A stretch of DNA of 64,000 nucleotides from an uncultured Alphaproteobacteria bacterium (GCA_963770385.1 CAVYPJ010000001.1:1168750-1232749); one strand, 5' to 3'. Counted from the first letter of the stretch, positions 11,431 through 64,000 are shown. Translations and numbers: made by a program. The notes: generated from the letters alone by a model not told the origin.

Positions 11431-13789
11431 TCAGAGTTTCTGCGAGATGCCGACGAAAAATCCGCGGCGCGGTCCGTATTGCGGGGCGAACACGCCGATG
11501 CCCGATCCGTCCCGGATCTGGTAGATCGTGTCGAAGGCGTTGACGACGTCGAAGCGCAGGGTCGTCGGCTTGGTGCCGTCGGTCCATTTGAACTCGTGCG
11601 ACACGCCCAGATTGACCTGCGAGTACCAGGGCAGCGAGTTCGGTATTGGCAAAGCCGCTGCGCAGGCCGCTGCCGTAGATCAGGTCGGCAGAAAACCGCG
11701 TGCCGTTCCAGAGATAGGACGCTCCCGCCGATCCTGAGACAAGCTGGGCGTGGTCGGTGTAGATGTAGTGGTTGGCGATGAAGGCAAGCTCGTCGGCCGC
11801 GAACAGGAACTGGTTCGACACCACATTGGTCGCGAGCTGGCGTGCGACCGCGATGTTGCTGTAGGCGTTGAAATTGCCGTTCTTGTATTTGGCCGTGAGT
11901 TCGATGCCGGCGTTTTCCGCGTGATCATAGTTGAAGGCGGTGAGCACGTAAGCCGCCCCGAACTGGCCGTCGTCGAGCAGGTCGCGGGCGATCTTGTAGT
12001 AGGCGTCGACGCCAACCTCCAGGCCCGGCAGCACACGCTGGGTCACGCCGACATCGAAATAATGCGAGCGTTCCGGCAGCACCGGATCGGCGCGGTTGAC
12101 CTCGGGCTGCTGCGTCGTGTTCTGCACCAGCGCGAGGTTGGTCGGCGCCGCCAGCACCTGCTGCGGCGGCGTGAAATAGCGCGCATAGCCGGCGTGGAAC
12201 GTCGTTCCATCGAACGGCTGATAGGTCAGGCTGATGCGCGGACTGAGCTGGTTGGCGCTGACATATTGCACCATCTGGTCGAAGCGCAGGCCCGCGTTCA
12301 GCGTGAGCTGGTTGTTGATCTTCCATTCGTCCGAGACGTACGTGCCGAACAGGAAGCCGGTCTTGGCGCTCGAATCGAAGATGCTGACCGGCACGTCGGA
12401 CGCCTGACCAGTCGTTGGATTGCCGGGAAACACGGAAGAAAAGTTATTCACGAGCGTCTGCTCGGCGCTGACGGTGAACCCGGCGCGCAGCGTATGCGCG
12501 TCGGCAATCCGATAGGAGGCGTCGGTCTGGATGCCATTGACGACGCTCTGCCGATAGACGTCGGAGGCGACGCCGTTGAAGATGAGATCGCCGATCGGAT
12601 CGGGCGTGAAATGCACGATGCTGGTGCGGTTGAAATAGGCAGTCTGCAGGTCGAGCCCTTCGGCCGAGTGCTGCAGCGCCAGCACATTGAACTGGTTGAA
12701 CTCGTTCTGGTTCTGGTTGAGATTGGCCGAATTGAAATTGGAGACGCCAAACGCGTTGAACGCGGGCGTCTGCCCGGGATTGTTGGGGATCTGGTAGTTG
12801 CTCTCGGCGACACCGCTCATGAAGGTGAGCCGGGTCGAGGGATCGATCACGGTCGAAACATAGGCGAAGCCCTTGCCTTGGTCGGTGTGGTCGTGGATTG
12901 CGGTATTGGCCGAGGTCGGGTTTTCCAGGCCGATGTCGCTGGCAAAGAAGCGGCCCGAGACGAAATACTGCGTCTGGCCGACAGTGCCGCCATATTCGAT
13001 GCTCGGCGTGATGGTTCCGCGGCTGCCGCCATAGACACTGACGGTCCCGGTATTGTCGAACGCGCTCTGCTTGGTCTGGATGTCGACGACGCCGGCGGTG
13101 CGCAGGCCGAACTGTGCCGGCATCGCGCCCGTGATCAGCGCAAGGCTGCCGACGATGCCACTGTCGACGATCTGGCCGAACGAGCCGACGCCGTCGGGCA
13201 GTGCGATGCCGTTGATGCGGTATTGCACATTGGCATGCTCATTGCGCACATGGAGCTCGCCGCTTGATGCAGAGTCCTGGGTGACGCCGGGGGCCTGCAG
13301 CAGGATCTTGTCGAGCGGGGCGTTGGCCCCCTGCGGACTCGCCTCGATGTTTTGCTGGGTGATCTCGTAGGGGCTCGTGCCGGTAGGTGCGTACAGGCTT
13401 TTGCGGGCTGCGTCGAAGGTTTCGGTCTGCTTGGCCAGCACCTGAGCTTCGGTTGGCGCGGGAGGCCGATTGGTCACGACCTGCGGCGGTTTGGCGCGCG
13501 GCCGGGACCGCTGGACCGGCGCCGCCACGCGCGTTTCCGGCAGGACGTTGCCGCCGCTCCGCTCGGCCTGCGGCGCCGGGCTCTGCTCTGGAGCCGGTGT
13601 GGCGTTGGGCTGAGGCGCTGATGTGGGAGGCGTTTCGGGAGCGGAGGGAGAAGCCGATGGCTGTGGCGCTGCCGCAGGTGGAGTCTCGGTTTGCGCAAGC
13701 GCGATCGGGCCGGATAGGGCCACGAATACGAGCGACGATACGGATAGCAGAAGTTTGCGCCTGACGCGCGCGAAAGGACGGGGGTTCAT
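11431..13789 (-). pseudogene. TonB-dependent receptor with a +1 frameshift near nt 11640 (possibly an assembly error)
   Basis: Signal peptide, Pro-rich extension, plug and barrel; the terminal strands (SLPWYSQVNLG...FFVGISQKL) continue in another frame; removing one A from ACCGAACTCG restores ANTDSLP. Confidence 0.85.
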
Positions 13790-42357: not shown

Positions 42358-43780
42358 TCACACGAACGAAATCGCCTCGGCGCTTTCCAGGATGCGCTTG
42401 AGTTCGGACAGTGCGTTGTCGAGGATGTCGTCGCTTGCGGGATGACCGAGGCACAGGCGGATGCCGAGCGTGCCCCGGTCGACCTGCTGCAATGCGCCGG
42501 GCGGCGCGATTGTGATGCCGGCTTGCGCGGCCTGCGTCACCAAAGCGATCAGCGTGCGGCCGGCCGGAATCGGCAGCCAGCGGTGAAATCCCGCCGTGCC
42601 CGGCATTGGCGTCAACCAGGTGCCGAGCAGGCGATCGGCGATTGCATTGCGCCGCGCGGCGGCGGCGCGCTTCAGATGCACTTGGCGCATCAAGTCGCCG
42701 CTGTGCAGCAGTCGCGCGACCACTTCGGCCATGATCGGTGAGGCCATCCAGCCGGTCGCGCGTACCGCGTTGATGGAGCGGTCGCGGAATTGCTCCGGCA
42801 CGATCATCGCACCGATCCGCAATCCCGGTGCGAGGCATTTCGCGAAGCTCGTGACGTAGAAGCTGCGATCCGGAATAAGCGCCGATACCGGCGTGGGCGG
42901 CGTGGCGAACAGAAAGGCGTAGACGTCGTCTTCGAGCAGATAAGCGTCGTGCCTGGCGACGACGTCTGCGATCTCCTGTCGCCGTTCTGGCGTCATCACC
43001 GTACCTGTCGGCGTCTGCAGGCTCGGGGTCGCGAACAGCACGCGCGCGCCGGTATCGGAGAATGCGCGGTCGAGCGCGTCGGGGAGAAGACCATCCGTGT
43101 CGCCGTCGACACCGTGGAGCCGGTATCCGTTCTGCGCCGACAGCGCGATCATACCGGAATAGGTGAAGCGCTCGGTGAGCACCATCGCCTTCGGCTGCCG
43201 CCACCATGTTCAGCGCGATCGACAGCGCGTGCTGGCCGCCATGGGTAATGAAGAGGTTGGCGACGTCGACCTTGATCCCGAAGGCGCGGAGCCAGTCCGC
43301 CACGATCTCGCGATGCGAGGGCAGGCCCTGATGCGGCAGATAGCCGAGCAGGGGGCTCAAGGCGCCGTCGGCCAATATCTCCGACAGAACCGACGCGATC
43401 AACTCGTCCTCGTCCGTCGCGGGCGGGACGTTGAGCGCGAGATTGATTGTTGATTGCGCGCTGCCTGTCGTGTTGGCGGGCGGCCGCGGGCGCTGCACGA
43501 AGGTGCCGCGGCCGACTTCGCCGGAGATCAGGCCGCGTGCCTCGGCTTCCGCATAGGCGCGCGATACCGTGCCGACGCTCAGGCCCAGCTGATTGGCCAT
43601 GTCGCGCTGAGGCAGCAGCCGCGTGCCGGGCTTCAGCACGCCGGTCCGCACATCATTCTCCAGCGCCTGGACGAAGGCGAGGTAGCGCGGCCCCTCGGTG
43701 TCGGCCAGGACAGGAAACCAATCATCGGAAGCGGTGATTTGCGACACGGGACGCGGGCTCTTCGGTTGTTCCGGCGTCAA
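42358..43780 (-). pseudogene. MocR/GabR family regulator (GntR wHTH plus PLP aminotransferase domain), frameshift near 43190
   Basis: PQRDMANQLGLSVGTVSRAY..GEVGRGTFV; the second frame has TPSLQTPTG, EDDVY and SFAKCLAPGLRIG (PLP Lys). Confidence 0.88.
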
Positions 43781-43997
43781 TTAGTACAATTTGAGAATTG
43801 ATGCAATATGTGACAGATGAATCCGTCCCTCGCTTCGACTGATTTCGCAGGTGGGAAGCAAAAATGATCGTGATTTCGTGTGTTTTAGCCCGCGAGCGAC
43901 CGATTGTTACAGTTCATTCAGGCAATCAAGATCGATTGAACTATTATAAGTTTGACATTTGTCATCCCTTGCTTTTTATCGTCCGAGCAAGGGAGCG

Positions 43998-44327
43998 ATG
44001 CGCGTGATCTACGAAATCCGAATTTACGAAGCCGTCGATGGCAAGGCCGACGCCATGAAGGCGCGGTTCAAGAACGAAGTCGTCAAACGATTTCCGGCTC
44101 ATGGCATCGAGTTGCTGGGCGTCTTTGAATCGGAAGCCGAGCAATCGCGGTTGACCTATCTCACGCGATTCAAATCCGAGGACGATCGCGGCAAGGCTTG
44201 GGCCGCCTTCGGTGCCGATCCGGACTGGCGCGCGGTGAAGGCCGCGACCGAAGTGGACGGGCCGCTGCTGAAGAGCCAGACGGTATCGGTGCTGTCGCCG
44301 GCGGTCGCCGGTCTGCTGCTCGGATAG
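43998..44327 (+). CDS. NIPSNAP family protein
   Basis: IYEIRIYEA, KAWAAFGADPDW. Confidence 0.85.
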   Translation: MRVIYEIRIYEAVDGKADAMKARFKNEVVKRFPAHGIELLGVFESEAEQSRLTYLTRFKSEDDRGKAWAAFGADPDWRAVKAATEVDGPLLKSQTVSVLSPAVAGLLLG

Positions 44328-44346
44328 CGGCCTCGAGAGATCGTAT

Positions 44347-45227
44347 ATGAAGCCCGCGCCCTTCGACTATGTCAGGCCCGCCTCGCTCGCTGAAGCCTGC
44401 GAGGTACTGGCGGGTGACGAAGATGCGCGCATCATTGCGGGCGGCCAGACTCTCATTCCGATGCTGGCGATGCGACTGGCCCGTCCCGCCGGCTTGTCGA
44501 CATTCTGCGCCTCAATGAATTGCGTGGCATCCGTTCGGATGACGACGCCATCGTCATCGGCGCGGTGACGCGTCAAGTCGAGGTCGAGCGCAGCGAGATC
44601 GTTCGGCGGGGGCTACCGCTGTTGCTCAAGGCGTTGCCCTGGGTGGGGCATCCGCCGACGCGCAACCGTGGCACGGTCGGCGGCTCGATTGCCAATGCCG
44701 ATCCGTCGGCGGAAATTCCGCTGGTCGCGGTGACGCTGGGCGCCGAGATCGAAATCGCCAATCCCTCCGGTCGCATGGGCATGCCGGCCGACGAGTTCTT
44801 CATCGGGCCGATGCTGACATCGGTGATGCCCGGTGATTGCGTCACCGCGATCCGCTTTCCTGTCTGGGCGCATCCGCGCGTCGGAACCGGCTTTCACGAG
44901 GTCAGCGCGAGGCAATCGGATTTCGCGTTCGTGGCAGCCGCCGCGCAGGTTGCGATCGATGATGCAGGGCGATGCATCGACGCAACGCTCGGGATCGGCG
45001 GCGTCGGCGACCGCGCGCTGCGGATCGACGTCACGGCTTTGGTCGGCAAGGAGGTTGCCCAGGTCTCCATTTCGGATGTCGTCCGTGCCGGGACTGCGGA
45101 TCTCGAAGCGAGCTCCGACCTGCATGCGACGGCGGATTATCGCCGCCGCGTCGCGGCTGTGCTGGGAGCACGTGCGCTGGAGGATGCCTTCGCGGACGCG
45201 CGAAGCGGCAACGGGGCCGTCCAATGA
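44347..45227 (+). pseudogene. FAD-binding medium subunit of a molybdenum hydroxylase (CoxM/CutM-like), frameshift near 44490
   Basis: MKPAPFDYVRP, IAGGQTLIP; continues in another frame with TRNRGTVGGSIANADPSAE; adding one C in CCCGCCGGCTT restores RPARLVD. Confidence 0.88.
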
Positions 45228-45808
45228 AGGTGAAACTCAACGTCAACGGGCGCGTGCGGGAGGCCGATGTCGAGCCGCGCAAGACGCTGCTCGATACGCT
45301 GCGCGAGGATCTCATGCTGGTCGGTAGCCATGCCGGCTGCGAGCACGGCGTGTGCGGCGCCTGTACCGTACTGATCGACGGCGAGCCGTCCCGGGCCTGC
45401 CTGATGTTCGCCGTGCAGGCCGACGGCTACGAGATCACGACCATCGAGGGTCTCGCGGCGGCGCCGGGCGAATTGAGCATCGTGCAGGATGCGTTTTGCG
45501 AGACCCATGGCTTGCAGTGCGGCTATTGCACGCCGGGAATGATCCTGACCGCGCATGCTTTGCTGACGCGAAACGATGCGCCGTCACGCGACGATATCGT
45601 AGAGGCGATCTCGGGCAATATCTGCCGTTGCACCGGCTATGGGCAGATCGTCGAGGCGGTCGAATTCGCCGCCGATCGGCTGCGCAAGACCAACGCGCCG
45701 CGCGAACCGCAGCGAGCGCCGGCCGACGAGGTCGGGAACGCCGATGCATCTGAAAAGGGTGTCCTGGAAGGTGCTCCCATCCATGGACCAGGTGGAGGCC
45801 GCTCGTGA
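45224..45808 (+). CDS. (2Fe-2S) small subunit of a molybdenum hydroxylase (CoxS-like)
   Basis: GCEHGVCGAC, QCGYCTPG, NICRCTGY. Confidence 0.93.
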   Translation: MKVKLNVNGRVREADVEPRKTLLDTLREDLMLVGSHAGCEHGVCGACTVLIDGEPSRACLMFAVQADGYEITTIEGLAAAPGELSIVQDAFCETHGLQCGYCTPGMILTAHALLTRNDAPSRDDIVEAISGNICRCTGYGQIVEAVEFAADRLRKTNAPREPQRAPADEVGNADASEKGVLEGAPIHGPGGGRS

Positions 45809-48209
45809 GCCCGACGACGCCTCTGAAATTCGTCTCCTCCAATCGCAGGGTGCGCGAAGATCGTCGCTTCGTCGCGGGTCACGGCCGTTTTGTCGCGGAT
45901 ATCGCGTTGGAAGACCTGCTGCATGTCGCGCTGGTGCCCTCGCAGCATCCGGCGGCGCGGATTGTTTCGATCAATGCGATCGAGGCGATGAAGATGCCAG
46001 GCGTCCATTACGTGCTGACCGGCGAGGAACTCGTCAACGCGACCGAACCGCTGATGAACGGGCTGGATACGCCGCATGTGCGGCGGTTTCCGCTCGCCGT
46101 CGGGCAGGTGCGCTATGCCGGCGAATGGGTGGTCGCGGTCGCAGCCGAGACCCGCGCGCAGGCCGAGGACGCGGCGGAGAAGGTGCGGATCGAATACGAG
46201 CCGCTGCCTTACGTGATCGATTCCGAGGAGGCGCTCGACCCGTCAAGCCCGCCGGTCCACGCCGCGCACGGCAGCAACCTGCTGCTCGACAAGACCTTCG
46301 TCTGGGGTGAGGTCGAGAAGCACTTTGCCGAAAGCCCGCGGCATTTGTCGTTCCGCGTGGTCTGGGGCCGCAGCTCGACGGTGCCGATCGAGACCTTCGG
46401 CGTCGCCGCCAAGTGGGATCCGTGGCGGGAGATGCTCGACGTCTGGGCCTCGATCCAGATGCCGAAATATTCCGACCAGATCGCGCGCTCGCTGCGCATC
46501 CCCCTGAATTGTGTGCGGGTGCATCAGGACGTCGATGTCGGCGGCAGCTATGGCGTCAAGCGCGGCATCAAGCAGACCGTGATCGTCGCGCATCTGGCGC
46601 GCCTGCTTGGCCGGCCGGTCCGCCTGATCGAGGATCGCCTCGACAACATGCGGGCAGGCGACGCGCATGGGCCGGACCGGATTTTCGACGTCGAGGTCGC
46701 CTTCAACGACGACGGCATCGTCAAGTCGATGAAGATGCGCGCGCTCGACAATGTCGGCGCCTATGCCGGCCGTTCGCCGTTCCAGCTCGGCAAGCCGATC
46801 GGCGCCATCGTCGGCCCCTACAAGATCGAGAGCGTGCAATATCGCGCCGTCGCGGTGACCTCGAACAAGGCGGCGCAGGAAGCGGTGCGCGGCTTCGGCC
46901 AGGCGCCGACCAATTATGCAATCGAGACCGCGATCGACAAGGTCGCCGCCGCGGTCGGGCTCGATCGCATCGAAGTGCGCCGCCGCAACTTCATCCGCAG
47001 CGACGAGTTTCCCTATCTCATTCCGAGCGGCACCCGCTACGACAGCGGCGACTACCACACGGTTGTCGCGAAGGTGCTCAAGCATGCCGACTATGAAGCG
47101 CTGGTGCGGGAGCGCGACGCGTTGCGCGCGGCCGGCCAATGCGCCGGCATCGGCATCGCGGCCTGCCTCGAACCGAGCGGCGGCAACTCCTCGTTCGAAC
47201 CGCTGCTCAACGAGAAGAACACCACCACGACCTGGATGGACTCCTGCCGTATCAATGTCGACGGCCTCGGCTTTGTGACCGCGACCATCCACACGACGTC
47301 GTCGGGGCAGGGCCATGAGACGCTCGCCGCGACCGTGATCGGCGAGGTACTCGAAATTGATCCGGATCATGATCCGGATCGTGCGCCCGGACACGCTGAG
47401 CAGCCTGCCGTCGAACTCGCCGGTCGGAAGCCGCATGGCGATCATGCTGGGTGGCGCCGCCTTCCATGCCGCGCAGAAGCTGAAAGCCAAGATCGTGCGG
47501 CTCGCCGCGCATCAGTTCGGATGCGCCGAGAACGACGTCAGCTATGAGAGCGGCACCGTCTCGCATGCCGCCTCGAAGAAGAAGCTGACCTGGGTCGAGC
47601 ACGTCACCATCGCGCACCGCAATTTCCATCTCTTGCCCGAAGGCATGGAGCCCGGGCTCGAGGTCACGCATGTGATGCAGGTGCCGACCGGCACCAAACT
47701 GCCGGAGAACGGCCGGGTGCAGATGTATCCGTGCCATTCCTTCGAGTTTCACCTGGTGCTGATCAGCGTTCGATCCCGAGATCGGCAAGCCGCATATCCG
47801 CCGCTACGTGATCGGCCATGATTGCGGGACCGTCATCAACCCGCACATCGTCAAGGGCATGACGCTCGGCGGCATCGCGCACGGCATCGGCGCCGCGCTT
47901 TTGGAAGAGTTCGTCTATGACAGCGAAGGCCAGATGCTGACGCAGAGCTTCATGGACTATCTGTTGCCGTCGTCGCACGAAGTGCCGCATGTCGAGATCG
48001 TGCATCATTGCACGCCGTCGCCGTTCACGGTGTTCGGCCAGAAAGGATCGGGCGAGAGCGGCTATCTGGGATCGCCAGCAGCGATCTCCGGCGCCATCAA
48101 CGACGCGGTCTCGTCGCTCGGAATTTCCTTTGCCAAGCTTCCGATCCGGATTGCGGCGATCAGCGATGCCATCGCGGCCGCCAAGGAAGCGAAGAAGCAA
48201 GCAAAGTAG
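45805..48209 (+). pseudogene. Molybdopterin-binding large subunit (xanthine oxidase family), two +1 frameshifts near 47360 and 47770
   Basis: VGGSYGVK, AVRGFG, SSGQGHET, QTLGG-like MTLGGIAHGIG, KGSGESG; three consecutive frames. Confidence 0.88.
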
Positions 48210-48235
48210 GAAGCGAAGGAAGAAAGGGTCTTAAA

Positions 48236-49213
48236 ATGATCATCGACTGTCACGCCCATCTCGTTCCCCCCTCGCTTCTTGACGCCATCCGGGCCGCTAA
48301 AGCGAATTTTCCGTCCGTGAAACTGATCGAGGAGGGCGGCAGCCTCGGCTTTGCCTTCGCCGGCAACAAGCCGACCCGGCCGGTGTCGAAGCCGCTGAGC
48401 GACATCACGGCGCGCCTGCAATGGCTCGACACCAACAAGATCGAGCGCCAGGTGGTCGGCGGCTGGCTCGATATGTTCGCCTACGAGATTCCGGCCGAGG
48501 AAGGCATTCGCTGGTCACGACTGATCAACACGCATCTCGGCAAGATCGCCAAGGAGCAGCCGCGCTTCATTCCGCTGGCGACCGTGCCGCTGCAGGATGG
48601 CGCGCGCGCCGCCGAAGTGCTGAAGGAAGCCCATGCGGACGGCTTCAAGGGCGCGATGATCGGCACCCAGCCGAAGGGCAAGGGCGGCGTGCTGGATGAT
48701 CCGTCGCTGCTGCCGTTCTGGGAAGCGGCCAACAGCCTCGGCTCGATCATCTTCATCCATCCGGTGTTCGAGAGCGGCGACGACCGCGTGCACGACTACG
48801 GCATGGCCAATGCGGTCGGGCGGATCACCGATACGCTGATCGCGATGTCGCGTCTGATCTATGCCGGCCATGTCACGCGCTACAGCAACATGAAGATCGT
48901 CGCCGGTATCGGCGGCGCGGCGCTGCCTTACGTGATCGGCCGGCTGCGGCGCAATTATTCGCTCGACAAGGACAAGCTCGGCGATCCCGACGCTGCGCTG
49001 GCCGCGATGTACTACGACACGATCGTGCAGGACACGCGCGCACTGCGCTATCTCGCCGACGTCGTCGGCGCCGACCGCATCATGATGGGATCGGACATGC
49101 CGTTCCCGATCGGCGATCTGGCACCCCTCAAGATCGTGCAGGAGACGTCGTTCACCGACGCCGAGCGCGCCAGCATCAATGGCGGGCTCGTCCAGAAGCT
49201 GTTCGAACTGTGA
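48236..49213 (+). CDS. Amidohydrolase_2 family protein (ACMSD/aromatic-acid decarboxylase-like)
   Basis: IDCHAH, FIHP, YYDT, GSDMPF. Confidence 0.88.
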   Translation: MIIDCHAHLVPPSLLDAIRAAKANFPSVKLIEEGGSLGFAFAGNKPTRPVSKPLSDITARLQWLDTNKIERQVVGGWLDMFAYEIPAEEGIRWSRLINTHLGKIAKEQPRFIPLATVPLQDGARAAEVLKEAHADGFKGAMIGTQPKGKGGVLDDPSLLPFWEAANSLGSIIFIHPVFESGDDRVHDYGMANAVGRITDTLIAMSRLIYAGHVTRYSNMKIVAGIGGAALPYVIGRLRRNYSLDKDKLGDPDAALAAMYYDTIVQDTRALRYLADVVGADRIMMGSDMPFPIGDLAPLKIVQETSFTDAERASINGGLVQKLFEL

Positions 49214-49689
49214 GGCGACACGTGAAGCTCGATATCGGCGGCAATGAAGCGATCCCGGCCTCGGTCGAGGCGCTCTGGGTCGCGCTCAACGATCCCAAGG
49301 TGCTGACGCGCTGCGTTCCCGGCTGCAAGACCATGACCGAGATCGCGCCGGACGCATACAAGGTCGACATGCAGCTGCGGGTTGCGGCTGTCGGCGGCTC
49401 GTTCGAAGGCGAGATATCGCTGTCGGACAAGCAGGCGCCGAAGACCTGCAACATAAAGGTTTCGGGCGCAGGCACGCTTGGCCACGGCAACGGCACGGCG
49501 CGGTTCGAGATCGAGCCGGATGGAGAAAATGGTGCGAAGCTTGTCTACAAGGGGACGGGCGAGATCGGCGGCCTTGTGGCTGGCGTCGGCCAGCGAATTC
49601 TGGCCAGCGTCTCCAAACATCTGATCGGGCGCTTCTTCGTCGCGCTGCGCAAGGAATTCGAACAACCGATAAGCGGTGCGGCGGGATGA
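49210..49689 (+). CDS. CoxG / SRPBCC family protein
   Basis: LWVALNDPKVLTRCVPGC, GGLVAGVGQR. Confidence 0.88.
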   Translation: MRRHVKLDIGGNEAIPASVEALWVALNDPKVLTRCVPGCKTMTEIAPDAYKVDMQLRVAAVGGSFEGEISLSDKQAPKTCNIKVSGAGTLGHGNGTARFEIEPDGENGAKLVYKGTGEIGGLVAGVGQRILASVSKHLIGRFFVALRKEFEQPISGAAG

Positions 49690-49771
49690 AATGACGCATC
49701 GCGTTGTTAAGTGCTGCGGGGAATAAGGCAGGCACGACGGGCGCGATGATGATTGTACGGGAGGACGTATA

Positions 49772-50743
49772 GTGAAAAGAGTATCGATCGGTTTGGGCGT
49801 GTTGATGGCGGCGACGATGCTCTCGCCGGCGTCCGCGCAAGACCTGAAGAAATTGTCGATCGTGGTTTTCGGCGCGCCCTCGCTCGGCGCCTTCCTGCCG
49901 CCCGTTATCAAGGCGCAGAAGCTTGATGAGAAGAACGGCCTGTCGATCACCTTCGAGGAGCGCACGCCGGACGCCTACACCGCGCAGTTCAATTCCGGTG
50001 AATTCCAGCTTGGCGGCAGCGCAGCGCTCCTGACCGTCGGTCTCGCCGATGTCCGCGGCGTCAAGGTCACCTATCTGTTCAATCTGTTCGACTTCTGGGG
50101 CACGGTCGTCACCTCGCGTCCCGAGGTCACCTCGATCAAGGACATCGAAGGCAAGGATCTCGCCGCGGCCAAGGGCACCACCAACTACGTGATGTTCGAC
50201 TGGTTCGCGCGCCAACTCGGCGCGGACACGGCCAAGTTCTCCGTGGTCAATACTGCGACACCGGGTCTCGTCGGCTACGCGCTGGCCGACCGCGCCACCG
50301 CGGTTCAGCTCTGGGAGCCGGCCTACACGACGCTCCGCACCAAGAAGCCCGGCATCAAGATGCTCGACCTCAAGATCGAGGAGAGCTGGCAGAAGGCGAC
50401 CGGCAGCAAGAACATTCCCTATCTCGGCGTCGCTGCGCATATCGATTGGGCCGAGAAGAACAAAGACCTGATCCCCAAGCTCTACGCCGCCTACAAGGAA
50501 GCGGGCGAATGGACCGCGGCGCATCCGGACGAAGCCGCCAAATTGATCATGACCAAGGGCAACGACGAAGATCGCAAGGCCGTTGCCGAACTGATCCGCG
50601 CCAACGACCGGTTGGGCATGAACATCCGCAGCGCGGCCGAGATCAGCAAGGAGATCAAGTCGGTCTATGACGCCGGAAAGTCGATCGCGTTCCTGCCGTC
50701 GCTTCCAGCCGACGCGACCATTTACAGCGGACCGATGAAGTGA
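49772..50743 (+). CDS. ABC transporter substrate-binding protein (SsuA/NMT1-like)
   Basis: Signal peptide, periplasmic binding fold, operon with a permease and an ATPase. Confidence 0.85.
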   Translation: MKRVSIGLGVLMAATMLSPASAQDLKKLSIVVFGAPSLGAFLPPVIKAQKLDEKNGLSITFEERTPDAYTAQFNSGEFQLGGSAALLTVGLADVRGVKVTYLFNLFDFWGTVVTSRPEVTSIKDIEGKDLAAAKGTTNYVMFDWFARQLGADTAKFSVVNTATPGLVGYALADRATAVQLWEPAYTTLRTKKPGIKMLDLKIEESWQKATGSKNIPYLGVAAHIDWAEKNKDLIPKLYAAYKEAGEWTAAHPDEAAKLIMTKGNDEDRKAVAELIRANDRLGMNIRSAAEISKEIKSVYDAGKSIAFLPSLPADATIYSGPMK

Positions 50744-51555
50744 CGATACCGCAGGCCGAGACGTCATTGGGTGCAGCGACCTGGAGCGTAGGCGGCCTCG
50801 GCCGGCGCGTGCTCTCTTACGTGTTGCCGTTCGCAGTGGTGGCCGGCTGCTGGCAGATCGCCGCGCAATTCTTCCCGCCATTCCTGTTTCCATCACTGGT
50901 CGACGTGTTCAAGCGCTGCGTCGACATTTTCTTCAGCTGGAGCCAGTTCAGCGACGTGCTCGCAACCGTCGGGCGCATTCTGGCGGGCCTTGCGGGCGCT
51001 TTCATCATCGGCGCGGCGTTTGCGGTGATGATGGCGCGCTCGCGGGCGGTGAACGATTTCCTCTCGCCGATCCTGACGCTGTTTCAGGGCATTCCCGCGC
51101 TATCCTGGGTCGTGTTCGCGATCATCTGGTTTCATGGCATCGAGCCGCGCATCTTCTTCATCATGGTCATGACGACGCTGCCGGCCTTCACGTTCCAGGT
51201 CCTGAGCGCGCTGCAGGCGATGTCGCGCGATCTCATGGAGATGGTGATGAGCTTTCGCCCGACCCGCGCGAAGCTATTCCGCACCATGATCATCCCGGCG
51301 ATCCTGCCGGACATCCTGACCGCGTGGAAGGTCAATCTGGGCAATGCGTCGCGCGTCGTCGTGGTCGCCGAACTGGTCGGCGCGACCGGTGGCGTCGGCT
51401 ATGAACTGCTGCAGCAGCAGCAGGTGTTCGACATGGCCGGCGCGCTGGCCTGGACGCTGCAACTCGTGTTCTTCGTGCTGATCGCGCAAGCCGTTCTGAC
51501 CCTGATCGAGAGCGTCGCGTTCCGCTATCGCGCGGTCTCGGAGCGCACGCTATGA
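50740..51555 (+). CDS. ABC transporter permease (SsuC/TauC-like)
   Basis: TM helices, GIPALSW, VVVAELVG. Confidence 0.9.
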   Translation: MTIPQAETSLGAATWSVGGLGRRVLSYVLPFAVVAGCWQIAAQFFPPFLFPSLVDVFKRCVDIFFSWSQFSDVLATVGRILAGLAGAFIIGAAFAVMMARSRAVNDFLSPILTLFQGIPALSWVVFAIIWFHGIEPRIFFIMVMTTLPAFTFQVLSALQAMSRDLMEMVMSFRPTRAKLFRTMIIPAILPDILTAWKVNLGNASRVVVVAELVGATGGVGYELLQQQQVFDMAGALAWTLQLVFFVLIAQAVLTLIESVAFRYRAVSERTL

Positions 51556-52310
51556 CCGCGACAGCCCCGATCATCAGCCTCGAGCAGGTCTCGAAGTCCT
51601 TCACCAAGAACCGCGCGGCGCCGGCCTATGTCGCGGTGGACCGCCTGGACCTTCAGGTCGGGCAGGGGCAGTTGCTTGCGCTGCTCGGCAAGACCGGCTG
51701 CGGCAAGTCGACGATCTTCAACATGATCGCGGGCCTGACCGAGCCGACGTCAGGCACGGTTATGGTCGACGGACGCAATCCCTTCAGCGACTTCAATTCC
51801 TTCCGCGGCAAGATCGCGATCGTGTTCCAGAACGATCGCCTGCTGCCCTGGCGCACTGCCGTGCAGAATGTCGAGCTTGGGCTTGAAATGCTCGACGTGC
51901 CCGTGAAGCAGCGGAAGGACACCGCGATGCACTGGCTCGGTCGGCTCGGCCTGCGCGGCCATGAGAACGACTATCCGCACGCGCTGTCCGGCGGCATGCG
52001 TCAGCGCGTGTCGATCGCGCGGGCCTTTGCGACCGACGCCAACATCCTGCTCTGCGACGAGCCGTTCTCCGCGCTCGACGAGATGACCGCGCGGACGCTG
52101 CGGGCCGAATTCGTTCGGCTGGTCAAGGAAAACGGCAAGACGGCGGTGTTCGTGACCCATTCGATCAACGAGGCGCTGGAGATCGGCGACCGGATCGTGG
52201 TGCTGAAGCGGCCCGCCAACATTGCGGTCGATCTGCCGCTGACGGCAGCAACGGACAGCGCCGAGAAGGAAGCGATCCGGCATCAAATTCAAAGCGTGCT
52301 GGCGGCATAG
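51552..52310 (+). CDS. ABC transporter ATP-binding protein
   Basis: GKTGCGKS, LSGGMRQR, LLCDEPFSALD. Confidence 0.95.
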   Translation: MTATAPIISLEQVSKSFTKNRAAPAYVAVDRLDLQVGQGQLLALLGKTGCGKSTIFNMIAGLTEPTSGTVMVDGRNPFSDFNSFRGKIAIVFQNDRLLPWRTAVQNVELGLEMLDVPVKQRKDTAMHWLGRLGLRGHENDYPHALSGGMRQRVSIARAFATDANILLCDEPFSALDEMTARTLRAEFVRLVKENGKTAVFVTHSINEALEIGDRIVVLKRPANIAVDLPLTAATDSAEKEAIRHQIQSVLAA

Positions 52311-52338
52311 ACCGCGGCCGTCAATTGGGAGGACTACG

Positions 52339-53313
52339 ATGCGAACCGCACTCGTTGCGGCCGTAGCGGCCTTGTGCGTGCTCGGCGCGAGCCCATCACG
52401 GGCGCAGGACTGGCCGACGCGGGCGCTCACCATGATTAATCCGTTCGCTGCCGGCGGCCCTAACGATGTGCCGGCGCGATTGTTCGCGCAGCGGATGGGA
52501 GAGATCCTGGGGCAATCCGTGATCGTCGAGAATGTCGGCGGCGCCGGGGGCATGAACGGCGCCGACCGCGTCGCGAAGGCCCAGCCCGACGGCTACACCT
52601 TCCTGCTCGGCACGGTCGGGACCCAGGCCCAGAACCAGGCGCTCTATAAGAAACCGGCCTACGACTCGACCAGGGATTTCGCGAGCGTCGGGCTGTTTCT
52701 GGAAGCCCCTCTGGTGCTGGTGGTCCGCAAGGACCTTCCTGTCAACTCGATGCAGGAGTTCGTTGCCTACGCCAAGGCGAACGCCGACAAGATGCAGTTT
52801 GCCTCGGCCGGAACCGGTTCGGCCATCCATCTCGGCTGCGCGCTGATGAACTCGGTGATGGGGCTGACCATCACCCATATTCCCTATCGCGGCTCCAATC
52901 CCGCGATGCAGGACCTCGCCAGCGGCCGGGTCGACTATCTCTGCGACATCGTCACGACGGCCAAGCCGCAGATCGACGGCGGGACGGTGAAGGCGATTGC
53001 GGTGCTCAATGATGTCCGCTCGGCCGCGCTGCCGGACGTTCCGACCGCGATGGAGCAGGGGTTCGATGTGAAGGCCTACACCTGGAACGCCTTCCTGCTG
53101 CCCAAGGGCACGCCGGAACCGATCGTGGCGAAGCTCAACCATGCCATGGTCGAGACGATGAAGACGCCCGCGGTCAGGGAAAAACTCGATGCGGTCGGCC
53201 TCAAGCTGGTGTCCGAGGAGCGAGCGACGCCAGCCTATCTCGATCAATTCATCCGGAGCGAAATCGACAAATGGGCGGTGCTGATCAAGGCAACCGGCAT
53301 CAGCATCGAATGA
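52339..53313 (+). CDS. Tripartite tricarboxylate transporter substrate-binding protein (Bug/TctC)
   Basis: PFAAGGPND, ENVGGAGG, HIPYRGSNPA. Confidence 0.93.
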   Translation: MRTALVAAVAALCVLGASPSRAQDWPTRALTMINPFAAGGPNDVPARLFAQRMGEILGQSVIVENVGGAGGMNGADRVAKAQPDGYTFLLGTVGTQAQNQALYKKPAYDSTRDFASVGLFLEAPLVLVVRKDLPVNSMQEFVAYAKANADKMQFASAGTGSAIHLGCALMNSVMGLTITHIPYRGSNPAMQDLASGRVDYLCDIVTTAKPQIDGGTVKAIAVLNDVRSAALPDVPTAMEQGFDVKAYTWNAFLLPKGTPEPIVAKLNHAMVETMKTPAVREKLDAVGLKLVSEERATPAYLDQFIRSEIDKWAVLIKATGISIE

Positions 53314-53320
53314 GCGCGGC

Positions 53321-53557
53321 TTAAGCGGCAGTCACTTCCTCTGCTTTTGGTACCGCTGAGGGGACCGGCACGGGTTCAGCCGTAGCCTCGCGCACCCGCC
53401 GCTTGACCGACAGGCTGACCACGCGGGAGCGCTGTGCGAGGCGTTCGGTCGAAGCGCAGACTGGACACCGGTAGGTGCCGATTTCGTAGCGGTGTGGCGC
53501 CGGGGTAACCGCCACCAGCTCACGTCGCACCCCGCATTTGAGGCAGTTCGGTGCCAT
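53321..53557 (-). CDS. Small zinc-ribbon hypothetical protein
   Basis: CLKC...YRCPVC. Confidence 0.55.
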   Translation of the reverse strand: MAPNCLKCGVRRELVAVTPAPHRYEIGTYRCPVCASTERLAQRSRVVSLSVKRRVREATAEPVPVPSAVPKAEEVTAA

Positions 53558-53694
53558 CTTCGATCCCCCGCGACTCACATGACTCGTCCAATGATTCGCT
53601 TTTGGAATCTTAAGACGATGACCCATCCAAATGGTTAACGTCGTATCGAAGCCGGAACTGGCTCGTCGTGCCGCGGCCGTTCCCTCGGAGGCGT

Positions 53695-53720
53695 GGAACC
53701 AGTTCAGCCCGGCTTGCGTT
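53695..53720 (+). promoter_or_regulatory. EcfG-type promoter GGAAC-N17-CGTT upstream of glgX
   Basis: Consensus match ending 28 nt before the ATG. Confidence 0.6.
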
Positions 53721-53748
53721 GCAGCAAGCAAAGAGGGGCGGGGTTTTC

Positions 53749-62722: not shown

Positions 62723-63631
62723 ATGGTCGATCGTCAGGGCTGCTTTGTCTGGTATGAGCTGTTGACCACTGACGTGGCGGCGGCGAAGGCGTTCTATCGC
62801 GACGTCATCGGTTGGGAGTCGCAAGATGCGACGACACCAGCGTTTACTTACAGTCTTTTTATGTCGTCGAGCGGTGCGGTCGCCGGATTGATGGATCTGC
62901 CCGAGGAAGGTCGGCGAATGGGAGCGACGCCGAGGTGGGTCGGCTATGTCGCTGTCGACGACATCGACGCGACCGCCGATCAGGTCAGAAAGCTTGGCGG
63001 TAGGATCTACGTTCCGCCGACGGACAGCAATATCGGTCGGCTTTCGATCGTTGCCGACGCGCAAGCCGCGGACTTCGCGCTCGTTGATGGATTGAAGCCG
63101 GAGCGCCGGGCCACCGCTCCGGATGCGCCGGGGCATGTTGGCTGGCACGAATTGCTGGCAGCGGATGGCGCAAGCGCGTTCGCGTTTTACGCCGAACTGT
63201 TCGGCTGGAAAAAAGCTGAAGCGGTGGGACCGAAGAGTGCAGTCGAGTCCTACCAACTGTTCGCCGCTGACGGTGTCACGATGGGAGGCATCTTCACCAA
63301 GTTCGCCCGCGAGCGGGTTCCGTTCTGGCTATACTACTTCAATGTCGCCGATGTCGCGCAAGCGGTTGCGCGGGTGAGGGCGGGCGGCGGCAAGGTCGTG
63401 CAAGGGCCGACGGAATTGCCGGACGGAAGTTGGATCGTCCGCTGTATCGATCCTCAGGATACGATGTTCGCGCTACAGGGCAAATCGAGCCAGCGTGGCG
63501 CCGAGCAGCCCGCGGCCGAGATCGGCTGGTCCACAAAGTGGGGGGACTTCGCCTCACGCGGCAGAATGATTGTCCGGCCGGAGGCCAAGCCGAACACAAG
63601 CCCGAACACAAAGCCGAAGCCGCAGCGCTGA
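62723..63631 (+). CDS. Two-domain VOC (glyoxalase/bleomycin-resistance-like) protein
   Basis: FVWYEL..AKAFYRDVIGW and VGWHEL..AFAFYAELFGW repeats; divergent from the precursor. Confidence 0.88.
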   Translation: MVDRQGCFVWYELLTTDVAAAKAFYRDVIGWESQDATTPAFTYSLFMSSSGAVAGLMDLPEEGRRMGATPRWVGYVAVDDIDATADQVRKLGGRIYVPPTDSNIGRLSIVADAQAADFALVDGLKPERRATAPDAPGHVGWHELLAADGASAFAFYAELFGWKKAEAVGPKSAVESYQLFAADGVTMGGIFTKFARERVPFWLYYFNVADVAQAVARVRAGGGKVVQGPTELPDGSWIVRCIDPQDTMFALQGKSSQRGAEQPAAEIGWSTKWGDFASRGRMIVRPEAKPNTSPNTKPKPQR

Positions 63632-63638
63632 GACGCGT

Positions 63639-64000
63639 TTACTCGGCCGGGACCGGCTTGGGCGGCGCCTTCGATGCCGGTTTGTCCTGTCGTTTCGACC
63701 AGGAAATATAGTAGGCCACCGTCGTCATGATCGCGAGACCCGCGACGCTGACTAGGATCTGCGCCAGCAGCGAGCCGGAGCTCAGCAGTAGCGTGAAATG
63801 CGCGACGAAGGACAGGAAGACGCCGACGCAGAACACGGCGAGCGATTGCTGGCCGCAGACGATTGCGGGATCAAACACCTTCCATTCCAGCCCGGGCCAG
63901 GTCTTCGGCACGAACCTCACGACCAGCATCGCGATGACGACGAAGTGCAGGAAGCGATAGGGCGCCAGGAAGGTTTTGTCGTTCGGATTGAAGGTCGAAT
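63639..64000 (-). CDS. opgC: OpgC family protein, 3' part (gene starts beyond the window)
   Basis: DKTFLAPYRFLHF, CGQQSLAVFCVGVFLS. Confidence 0.8.
   Translation of the reverse strand, partial: STFNPNDKTFLAPYRFLHFVVIAMLVVRFVPKTWPGLEWKVFDPAIVCGQQSLAVFCVGVFLSFVAHFTLLLSSGSLLAQILVSVAGLAIMTTVAYYISWSKRQDKPASKAPPKPVPAE

What the first reader, a model, noticed from the sequence alone, without database searches (positions are those of the whole stretch)
42358..53313. Orphan molybdenum-hydroxylase catabolic cluster under a MocR regulator
Seen in sequence: a divergent MocR gene, then NIPSNAP, FAD, 2Fe-2S and Mo subunits, an amidohydrolase_2, CoxG, an SsuA-like ABC system and a Bug receptor. The large subunit has AVRGFG, not the AYxCSFR motif of form I CO dehydrogenase. 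Established: xanthine-oxidase-family enzymes hydroxylate N-heterocycles, and amidohydrolase_2 enzymes decarboxylate hydroxylated aromatic or pyridine acids. Inference: a hydroxylation-decarboxylation route for an unidentified heteroaromatic acid. The PLP-domain regulator hints at a pyridine or amine signal.
Basis: partly seen in the sequence, partly recalled or inferred. Interest (0 to 1): 0.55.

Follow-up and report, generated by a model that had tools for sequence, protein, structure and literature searches.

The report
Conserved orphan molybdenum-hydroxylase operon, frame-broken assembly
This is a real 11-gene Bradyrhizobium operon for importing and oxidising an unidentified small molecule; it is common in soil and unstudied, and four of its reading frames look broken here, most likely through sequencing errors that run through this whole assembly.

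Summary
All comparison copies that cover each of the four sites (4 to 9 per site) read through them.

The breaks are probably technical. About 6% of conserved genes in this assembly are frame-split, including rplE and dnaG. The verified events are mostly +1 insertions outside homopolymers. Isolated events are enriched at GANTC methylation sites. The broken genes show the same low dN/dS as intact controls and have no stop codons.

The block MocR <-> NIPSNAP-FAD-FeS-Mo-amidohydrolase_2-CoxG-SBP-permease-ATPase (with TctC at either end) has the same order in 5 Bradyrhizobium genomes and 80 soil-metagenome contigs. Repeated ATTGTTGCAAT-like boxes sit in the divergent promoter region.

No characterised ortholog was found. 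The best solved match is quinoline 2-oxidoreductase at 379 bits, and one Burkholderia plasmid copy reaches 60.5% identity.

The "decarboxylase" inference is weakened. In all 82 Bradyrhizobium-type orthologs the ACMSD/PicC essential histidine is Ile or Met.

Verdict: an ordinary, genuinely uncharacterised catabolic operon. Its substrate is unknown and the chemistry of its second step is open.

The parts
42358..43747 (-). MocR-type regulator (GntR wHTH + fold-type-I aminotransferase domain). Likely GTG start at 43747. The frame is broken by an extra T at 43196. Candidate PLP lysine in TSFAKC at 42838-42840.
   Evidence: Pfam; NCBIfam EhuR model 414 bits, below the 480 cut-off (on the intact ortholog L009); indel position; start and lysine read from translation.
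43782..43808 (.). Conserved box 1 in the divergent intergenic region: TAGTACAAT-N6-ATTGATGCAAT. Candidate MocR operator.
   Evidence: Alignment of five Bradyrhizobium intergenic regions; coordinates. The function is inferred.
43902..43919 (.). Box 2. It reads ATTGTTGCGGTGCAAT in L009 and is degenerate here (GATTGTTACAGTTCATTC).
43934..43958 (+). Conserved GATTGAAC...TAAGTTTGACA element. The TTGACA is a candidate -35 for the operon.
   Evidence: Invariant TTTGACA in five genomes. The strict sigma-70 scan found no full promoter.
43998..44327 (+). NIPSNAP-family protein (dimeric alpha/beta-barrel clan), first gene of the operon. The ATG at 43998 follows AAGGGAG.
   Evidence: Pfam 60 bits; start read from sequence.
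44347..45227 (+). FAD-binding medium subunit (CoxM type). One base is missing after 44490.
   Evidence: Pfam; N-terminal 48 residues lie in another frame; indel against 8 comparison copies.
45224..45808 (+). Small subunit with two [2Fe-2S] domains. Its start overlaps the FAD gene stop.
   Evidence: Pfam Fer2 + Fer2_2; start.
45805..48209 (+). Molybdopterin-binding large subunit. AVRGFG at 46882-46899; GSGESG (catalytic Glu region) at 48045. Extra A at 47369 and extra A at 47765 split it into three frames.
   Evidence: Pfam on the three pieces; indels; motifs; intact orthologs are 797-804 aa.
48236..49213 (+). ACMSD-like amidohydrolase_2, intact. It keeps His6, His8, His175, Asp287, Arg48 and Arg236, but has Ile at the ACMSD His224/228 position (AGIGGAALPY).
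   Evidence: Pfam; PDB search and residue alignment; ortholog alignment; motif census.
49210..49689 (+). CoxG / SRPBCC protein, intact.
   Evidence: Pfam 78 bits. Present in 39 of 49 metagenome loci with enough flank.
49772..50743 (+). Periplasmic NMT1/SsuA-family ABC substrate-binding protein with a signal peptide.
   Evidence: Pfam and NCBIfam; no solved relative at E<=0.01; Atlas look-alikes are all NMT1.
50740..51555 (+). ABC permease.
   Evidence: Pfam.
51552..52310 (+). ABC ATPase.
   Evidence: Pfam.
52339..53313 (+). TctC/Bug-family periplasmic receptor. No TctA or TctB lies in the block.
   Evidence: Pfam 241 bits. Closest solved proteins are a possible TctC subunit (6hke), BugD and a terephthalate-binding protein. 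It lies either downstream or next to MocR in relatives.

Best explanation
This is a conserved and, in the living cell, probably intact Bradyrhizobium operon for uptake and first attack on a small organic acid. The substrate is most likely a carboxylated N-heterocycle or a related aromatic compound.

The proposed sequence of events is:
1. A PLP-type MocR regulator, transcribed divergently, binds repeated ATTGTTGCAAT-like boxes and controls the operon.
2. An NMT1/SsuA-type ABC system imports the substrate, perhaps with help from an orphan TctC receptor.
3. A three-subunit CoxMSL/Qor-type molybdenum hydroxylase inserts a water-derived oxygen. CoxG accompanies this enzyme.
4. The translationally linked ACMSD-like zinc enzyme processes the hydroxylated product.

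For step 4 my first choice is non-oxidative decarboxylation (about 40%). Hydrolytic opening or isomerisation of the newly made lactam is a close second (about 30-35%).

I read the four single-base frame breaks in MocR, the FAD subunit and the Mo subunit as assembly errors (about 75%) rather than gene decay.

What is shown: domain content, synteny, purifying selection, the positions of the breaks, and the genome-wide error pattern. What is inferred: substrate class, regulation, the order of reactions, and the technical origin of these particular four breaks.
For: Domains and order.

Operon structure: genes overlap by 4 bases or are separated by 19-82 bases.

Synteny:
- The same order is found in 5 Bradyrhizobium genomes and 80 metagenome loci.
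- The Mo subunit lies upstream of the amidohydrolase in 39 of 40 loci with enough flank.
- FAD + FeS + Mo are present in 30 of 31, the ABC genes in 30 of 31, and MocR in 21 of 25.
- Only 3 frame-split genes occur among all those loci.
- Orthologs at 58-60% identity in other alphaproteobacterial families keep FAD-FeS-Mo-amidohydrolase_2.

Selection: dN/dS is 0.05-0.13 for all 11 genes. The broken genes give 0.067-0.110, against 0.062-0.133 in an intact control pair. No in-frame stops appear once the breaks are read through.

Conserved intergenic boxes.

Assembly errors:
- 18 of 298 conserved orthologs are frame-split. They include rplE, dnaG, prfC, miaA and an acetolactate synthase-like TPP enzyme.
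- The verified events are mostly +1 insertions outside homopolymers.
- There are 65 frame switches per Mb, against 12 per Mb in the control genome.
- Isolated events are enriched for GAANTC/GANTTC, at 40% against 16% for random positions.
- Such events cluster in about 45 places.

Precedents for pairing a Mo hydroxylase with an amidohydrolase_2: PicA/PicC (10.1101/530550, 10.1101/457895) and LuDH/DHLI (PMC12391406).
Against: - Four breaks in 4.6 kb is far above the genome average of about one per 15-20 kb.
- None of the four sits at a GANTC site. As a class, clustered events lack that technical signature.
- Other dense clusters lie in accessory transport and catabolic genes, which would also fit real decay.
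- No reads are available, so the breaks cannot be settled.
- The amidohydrolase lacks the histidine that is essential in PicC (10.1101/457895).
- No downstream ring-cleavage genes lie in the block.
- Relatives at 60% identity sit next to a CoA transferase, a CoA ligase, or an enoyl-CoA hydratase plus an alpha/beta hydrolase. The clade's substrates may therefore be CoA thioesters or non-heterocycles.
Confidence: 0.55

Rival explanations
1. The operon is truly decaying in this strain. The regulator and two dehydrogenase subunits carry real frameshift mutations, so the pathway is dead while the transporters and the amidohydrolase are still open.
For: Four indels against the comparison copies that cover each site. 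Local density is well above the genome mean. No GANTC context, and clustered events in general lack that signature. Other dense clusters hit accessory catabolic and transport genes. The 14 paralogous Mo subunits in the same genome are all open.
Against: Essential genes (rplE, dnaG) are broken in the same way, so technical indels certainly exist, and they cluster too: about 3 events in 2 kb around rplE. Three of the four events are +1 insertions outside homopolymers. From general knowledge (not tested here), this runs against the deletion and homopolymer bias of natural indels. There are no nonsense codons and no larger deletions, and dN/dS equals that of intact controls.
Confidence: 0.22
2. 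One reading: the Mo enzyme hydroxylates a heteroaromatic carboxylic acid and the amidohydrolase_2 then removes the carboxyl group, as PicA and PicC do for picolinate.
For: The nearest solved relatives of the amidohydrolase are all decarboxylases: ACMSD 119 bits, IDCase 72, LigW 71, gamma-RSD 57. The HxH, His175 and Asp287 metal ligands are invariant. So are Arg48 and Arg236, which align with arginines of human ACMSD. From memory only, these are ACMSD's substrate-binding arginines; this was not tested here. The PicA/PicC precedent is in 10.1101/530550.
Against: The residue equivalent to ACMSD His228 / PicC His216 is Ile or Met in 82 of 82 orthologs. That histidine is essential in PicC and is reported in all known amidohydrolase_2 proteins (10.1101/457895). 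PicC is gamma-RSD-like with an EEH motif, not HxH. No picB or picD-G genes are present.
Confidence: 0.3
3. Hydroxylation makes a lactam, and the amidohydrolase_2 opens or rearranges it hydrolytically. The resulting amino acid is the ligand that forms an aldimine with PLP in the EhuR/EnuR-like MocR regulator.
For: The amidohydrolase-2 isomerase DHLI follows the Mo enzyme LuDH in lumazine catabolism (PMC12391406). In a 60.5%-identical Burkholderia operon the gene coupled to the Mo subunit is an alpha/beta hydrolase, and an amidase lies next to a 59% ortholog. The MocR ortholog scores 414 bits on the EhuR model. From general knowledge (that paper was not read here), EnuR senses ring-opened ectoine products (PMC8739950).
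Against: Known hydrolytic members of the family are much weaker matches (LigY 46 bits, LigJ 29 bits). DHLI is described as a two-subunit enzyme with a different metal-ligand numbering. There is no direct evidence.
Confidence: 0.25
4. The enzyme is an acyl-CoA dehydrogenase of the 2-furoyl-CoA dehydrogenase type, as JGI's automatic name suggests.
For: JGI names many orthologs '2-furoyl-CoA dehydrogenase large subunit'. A CoA transferase sits immediately upstream in L034, an AMP-binding ligase lies near L033, and an enoyl-CoA hydratase is in the Burkholderia operon.
Against: No CoA ligase, transferase or hydratase appears in any of the 85 Bradyrhizobium-type loci. The name is automatic. A Cupriavidus basilensis plasmid homolog is only 38% identical and is not in an hmf context.
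Confidence: 0.08
5. It is a form II CO dehydrogenase.
For: The best NCBIfam model is an aerobic CODH group at 444 bits, and CoxG is present.
Against: 444 bits is far below the 950 cut-off. There is no AYxCSFR loop and no coxDEF genes. The enzyme is coupled to an importer, an amidohydrolase and a MocR regulator.
Confidence: 0.03

Closest known systems
Quinoline 2-oxidoreductase QorLMS (PDB 1t3q), 6-hydroxypseudooxynicotine dehydrogenase KdhLMS (7dqx) and CoxLMS-type CO dehydrogenases
   Same: Three separate subunits with the same Pfam domains. The AxRGFG-type motif and a C-terminal GxGE are present. The best solved matches are 379, 358 and 350 bits.
   Different: The similarity is only at family level, whereas orthologs score above 1000 bits. 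The CODH active-site loop is absent. The gene neighbourhood is different: MocR, NIPSNAP, an ACMSD-like enzyme and an ABC importer.
Picolinate pathway PicA (Mo dehydrogenase) + PicC (amidohydrolase_2 decarboxylase), Alcaligenes faecalis JQ135
   Same: A Mo hydroxylase is paired with a Zn amidohydrolase_2 enzyme in one catabolic cluster. Pic clusters are reported in some Bradyrhizobium (10.1101/530550).
   Different: There are no picB, picD, picE, picF or picG genes. PicC is gamma-RSD-like with an EEH motif and an essential His216. The protein here is ACMSD-like (HxH) with Ile at that position (10.1101/457895).
Lumazine/pterin cluster I of Cupriavidus sp. LA-1 (LuDH + DHLI + XCDC), PMC12391406
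   Same: A three-subunit XOR-family dehydrogenase is followed by a Zn amidohydrolase-2 enzyme that acts on the hydroxylated ring. It is a soil-bacterial, transporter-linked cluster.
   Different: The block here has no UbiD/UbiX decarboxylase, pterin deaminase, GTP-binding helper or two-subunit isomerase. LuDH is described as outside the COX group, whereas this enzyme's best matches are COX/Qor-type. The sequences could not be compared directly.
EhuR/EnuR MocR regulators of ectoine catabolism
   Same: GntR HTH plus a PLP aminotransferase-like domain. The NCBIfam EhuR model is by far the best hit, at 414 bits.
   Different: The score is below the model's 480-bit cut-off, and there are no ehu, eut or doe genes nearby.

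Membership tests
Xanthine-oxidase-family three-subunit Mo hydroxylase (CoxLMS/Qor type) | Large subunit with Ald_Xan_dh_C, MoCoBD_1 and MoCoBD_2; medium subunit with FAD_binding_5 + CO_deh_flav_C; small subunit with two [2Fe-2S] domains | tested here: met
   Pfam, all above the gathering cut-off.
Xanthine-oxidase-family three-subunit Mo hydroxylase (CoxLMS/Qor type) | Active-site AxRGxG motif and C-terminal catalytic Glu (GxGE) | tested here: met
   AVRGFG at 46882 and GSGESG at 48045. Assigning the Glu as the catalytic base rests on family knowledge.
Xanthine-oxidase-family three-subunit Mo hydroxylase (CoxLMS/Qor type) | Uninterrupted reading frames | tested here: not met
   The Mo subunit is in 3 frames and the FAD subunit in 2 frames in this assembly. 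This is probably a sequencing artefact.
Form I aerobic CO dehydrogenase | AYxCSFR active-site loop with the Cu-binding Cys | tested here: not met
   No match in any frame of the large subunit. The TIGR02416 score of 402 bits is below the 991 cut-off.
ACMSD-type amidohydrolase_2 non-oxidative decarboxylases | N-terminal HxH, His on strand 5 (ACMSD His177) and Asp on strand 8 (Asp294) as metal ligands | tested here: met
   His6, His8, His175 and Asp287 are invariant in 7 orthologs and aligned to human ACMSD.
ACMSD-type amidohydrolase_2 non-oxidative decarboxylases | Histidine equivalent to ACMSD His228 / PicC His216 (essential in PicC; reported in all known amidohydrolase_2 proteins) | tested here: not met
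   Ile here. It is Ile or Met in 82 of 82 Bradyrhizobium-type orthologs, and His only in two orthologs at about 50% identity (10.1101/457895).
pic (picolinate) gene cluster | picB monooxygenase genes and picD-G maleamate-pathway genes next to picA/picC; a gamma-RSD-like PicC | tested here: not met
   None of these domains is in the block. gamma-RSD is a weak match at 57 bits. A direct comparison with PicA1 or PicC sequences was not possible.
MocR/GabR PLP-dependent transcription factors | N-terminal GntR wHTH fused to a fold-type-I aminotransferase domain with a PLP lysine | tested here: met
   Pfam GntR and Aminotran_1_2. A lysine lies in TSFAKC at 42838-42840; calling it the PLP lysine rests on motif reading only.
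EhuR ectoine-utilisation regulator (NF052286) | Score above the curated cut-off | tested here: not met
   414 bits against a 480 cut-off, measured on the intact ortholog.
2-furoyl-CoA dehydrogenase HmfABC | Operon with a furoyl-CoA synthetase and an enoyl-CoA-hydratase-like hydrolase | tested here: not met
   No such genes appear in the window or in 85 related loci. Identity to HmfA itself was not tested.
Lumazine cluster I (LuDH/DHLI/XCDC) | UbiD/UbiX decarboxylase, pterin or cytosine deaminase, and an LA1_0143-type helper next to the isomerase | tested here: not met
   Absent from the block by Pfam content. Sequence comparison with DHLI was not possible.

The most novel reading that the evidence does not exclude
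The His-less ACMSD-like protein is a new catalytic variant of the amidohydrolase_2 family. It is under the strongest purifying selection in the block and has Ile or Met in place of the otherwise universal histidine. In this reading it opens or rearranges the lactam made by the Mo hydroxylase, and the resulting amino acid is the inducer read by the EnuR-like MocR regulator. The operon would then define an undescribed and very common soil-Bradyrhizobium route for an abundant natural N-heterocycle.
Probability: 0.15. Interest if true: 0.55.

Novelty: new member of a known kind. Interest (0 to 1): 0.3.

Why it matters
Bradyrhizobium carries 13-22 xanthine-oxidase-family paralogs per large genome, and almost none has a known substrate. 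This one has a fixed partner set and occurs in at least 80 soil-metagenome contigs, so it is a well-defined target for substrate discovery.

The histidine-to-Ile/Met change warns against transferring the 'decarboxylase' label from ACMSD.

More practically, this assembly holds several hundred probable false frameshifts. Part of them occur at CcrM GANTC sites. Any 'pseudogene' or 'split gene' call made on this genome needs checking against reads.

Tried and rejected
- The idea that frameshifts cluster in unpolished repeated DNA was rejected. Apart from one RTX-repeat region, the dense clusters, including this one, have no near-identical second copy.
- The 14 intact Mo-subunit paralogs first suggested real decay. 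Wider sampling then showed genome-wide frame breaks.
- The strict sigma-70 and terminator scans gave nothing useful.
- The binding protein has no solved relative.
- The ESM Atlas gave only family names.
- The MocR regulon survey (PMC5320631) does not mention this regulon.
- Literature searches for the gene combination returned nothing specific.
I used the search for related loci on metagenome contigs instead.
- Earlier scan notes for this window concern other loci and did not bear on this finding.
- The tallies include the unpublished genomes G016 and G270. Only their counts are used, and no sequence from them.

Full report
WHAT IS THERE

- On the minus strand there is a MocR-type regulator: a GntR HTH plus an aminotransferase domain.
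- On the plus strand there are, in order: NIPSNAP, an FAD subunit, a 2x[2Fe-2S] subunit, a molybdopterin subunit, an Amidohydro_2 protein, CoxG, an NMT1/SsuA-type binding protein, an ABC permease, an ABC ATPase and a TctC/Bug receptor.
- Genes overlap by 4 bases or are 19-82 bases apart, as in one operon.
- AVRGFG is at 46882-46899 and no AYxCSFR loop exists.
- Names attached to close homologs place the genome in Bradyrhizobium.

Three genes are not open in this sequence.
- MocR reads in two frames.
- The FAD subunit reads in two frames.
- The Mo subunit reads in three frames.

Each break was aligned with 4 to 9 comparison copies that cover the site. Each is a single-base event: an extra T at 43196, one base missing after 44490, an extra A at 47369 and an extra A at 47765. 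None lies in a homopolymer.

ARE THE BREAKS REAL?

I tested the assembly as a whole.

Homology test. I compared 469 long ORFs, taken from 0.8 Mb of a complete congeneric genome (G007), with this genome by tblastn.
- Of 298 orthologs at 65% identity or more, 18 (6%) are split across frames here.
- The split genes include ribosomal protein L5, DNA primase, RF3, MiaA and an acetolactate synthase-like TPP enzyme. A viable cell cannot carry frameshifted rplE and dnaG, so technical indels are certainly present.
- In the DNA alignments the clean events are about 16 single-base insertions against 2 single-base deletions, outside homopolymers.
- Several events turn a GANTC site (the CcrM methylation motif) into GAANTC.

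Frame-tracking test. A codon-usage Viterbi scan recovers all four breaks of this locus.
- It finds 483-519 same-strand frame switches genome-wide, or 65 per Mb. The same scan gives 12 per Mb on 0.82 Mb of G007.
- Isolated events have GAANTC/GANTTC within 40 bases in 40% of cases, against 16% for random positions. Clustered events do not show this enrichment.
- Events are strongly clustered: about 45 places have three or more within 6 kb, and this operon is one of them.
- Dense clusters that I sampled lie in accessory transport and catabolic genes. They are not repeats, with one RTX exception.

Selection test. Against the closest metagenome relatives (about 85% nucleotide identity), the broken genes give dN/dS of 0.067-0.110. 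The intact control pair gives the same range. There are no in-frame stops once the breaks are read through.

Taken together:
- For a technical origin: essential genes are hit, insertions dominate, there is a methylation-site signature, there are no nonsense mutations or larger deletions, and selection is not relaxed.
- For real decay: the local density is high, these four sites have no GANTC context, and dense clusters sit in accessory genes.
- I put a technical origin at about 75% and recent real decay at about 22%. Only reads can settle it.

CONSERVATION

- The large-subunit ortholog (82-85% identity over its first 522 residues) is present in 5 of 18 other Bradyrhizobium species sampled, with open frames of 762-850 aa. 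That tally includes the unpublished genome G016.
- Four of these genomes carry the whole block in the same order.
- A metagenome scan seeded with the amidohydrolase returned 80 soil and rhizosphere loci with the same architecture. Among loci with enough flank:
  - the Mo subunit lies upstream in 39 of 40;
  - FAD + FeS + Mo are present in 30 of 31;
  - MocR is present in 21 of 25, and NIPSNAP in 19 of 25;
  - the binding protein is present in 47 of 49, and CoxG in 39 of 49;
  - the three ABC genes are present in 30 of 31;
  - TctC is seen in 14 loci, either downstream or beside MocR.
- Only three frame-split genes occur in all those loci.
- Across 300 other alphaproteobacterial genomes, five from different families have a 58-60% ortholog. 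That tally includes the unpublished genome G270.
- Where I fetched the DNA, the FAD-FeS-Mo core is kept. It is followed by an amidohydrolase_2 in two loci and by a truncated one in a third.

REGULATION

The divergent intergenic region holds motifs conserved in five genomes:
- TAGTACAAT-N6-ATTG(A/T)TGCAAT at 43782-43808;
- a second ATTGTTGC...GCAAT box near 43902;
- GATTGAAC...TAAGTTTGACA at 43934-43958.

Repeats of this kind are what MocR proteins bind. That they act as operators here is an inference. The regulator's best family model is EhuR at 414 bits, below its 480-bit cut-off.

FUNCTION

- No subunit reaches an NCBIfam equivalog cut-off.
- The large subunit's best solved relatives are quinoline 2-oxidoreductase (379 bits), KdhL (358) and CoxL (350).
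- Among 72,556 plasmids only one Burkholderia operon reaches 60.5% identity. All others listed are at or below about 38%.
- JGI's '2-furoyl-CoA dehydrogenase' label is automatic.

The amidohydrolase is closest to ACMSD (119 bits), then to IDCase, LigW and gamma-RSD.
- It keeps the HxH, His175 and Asp287 metal ligands.
- It keeps Arg48 and Arg236, which align with arginines of human ACMSD.
- At the position of ACMSD His224/228 (PicC His216) it has Ile. This position is Ile or Met in 82 of 82 orthologs of this cluster type. It is His only in the two orthologs at about 50% identity.
- That histidine is essential in PicC and is stated to occur in all reported amidohydrolase_2 proteins (10.1101/457895).
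- The protein has the lowest dN/dS in the block (0.047), so it is functional but not a canonical decarboxylase.

Two published systems pair a Mo hydroxylase with an amidohydrolase_2.
- PicA/PicC: hydroxylation, then decarboxylation (10.1101/530550).
- LuDH/DHLI: hydroxylation, then hydrolytic ring isomerisation (PMC12391406).

The block here has neither the pic downstream genes nor the UbiD/UbiX and deaminase genes of the lumazine cluster. In relatives at 60% identity, the gene coupled to the Mo subunit can be an alpha/beta hydrolase. CoA transferase, CoA ligase or enoyl-CoA hydratase genes can lie beside the operon. This keeps a hydrolytic second step open, and also CoA-bound substrates for the wider clade. 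No Bradyrhizobium-type locus has CoA genes.

VERDICT

The finding is a real, conserved and uncharacterised operon, so 'orphan' is fair. It is an ordinary member of a well-known kind of catabolic module. The substrate cannot be named from sequence. The decarboxylation step is doubtful. The apparent gene breaks are most likely errors of an assembly that holds several hundred of them.

Noticed in passing
whole genome G000 (e.g. C3:4619619-4620276 rplE; C3:2587737-2589732 dnaG; C1:829850-831514 prfC; C3:3203328-3206957 miaA and an acetolactate synthase-like TPP enzyme): About 6% of conserved genes are frame-split. A frame-tracking scan gives about 480-520 candidate frame switches (65 per Mb, against 12 per Mb in a control genome). 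The verified events are mostly +1 insertions. Isolated events are enriched at GANTC sites read as GAANTC, which looks like a methylation-linked base-calling error.
   Followed up: yes
window 11432-13586 (-): A TonB-dependent receptor whose last ~66 codons lie in another frame, with the switch near 11633. This is probably another single-base error. No ortholog was aligned to confirm it.
   Followed up: partly
window 63525-64000 (-): A further same-strand frame switch near 63706, at the window edge, flagged by the frame-tracking scan.
   Followed up: no
window 53321-53731 (-): An ORF convergent on TctC with no Pfam match. It holds a CxxC...CxxC pair (CLKCG ... CPVCAS), as in a small zinc-ribbon protein. 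The real start is probably internal.
   Followed up: no
G000:C3:2095693-2119382: A ~23 kb region of tandem RTX (HemolysinCabind) repeats that are about 70% identical to each other. Ten frame switches fall in the first 5 kb, so it is either a giant repeat protein that was badly assembled or a scan artefact.
   Followed up: partly
L011 (G004:C33:62000-81999): The orthologous cluster in this 86%-complete genome also shows MocR, the FAD subunit and the permease each split over two frames.
   Followed up: no
L009:12300-13147 (G007): About 850 extra bases lie between CoxG and the binding-protein gene in this relative. They are absent from the window and from most metagenome loci.
   Followed up: no
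L069 (Burkholderia sp. PAMC 26561 plasmid NZ_CP014310.1, 255919-276258): The only plasmid ortholog (60.5%). Its operon reads FAD-FeS-Mo, alpha/beta hydrolase, enoyl-CoA hydratase, CoxG, XdhC. A different hydrolase therefore occupies the slot of the amidohydrolase_2.
   Followed up: partly
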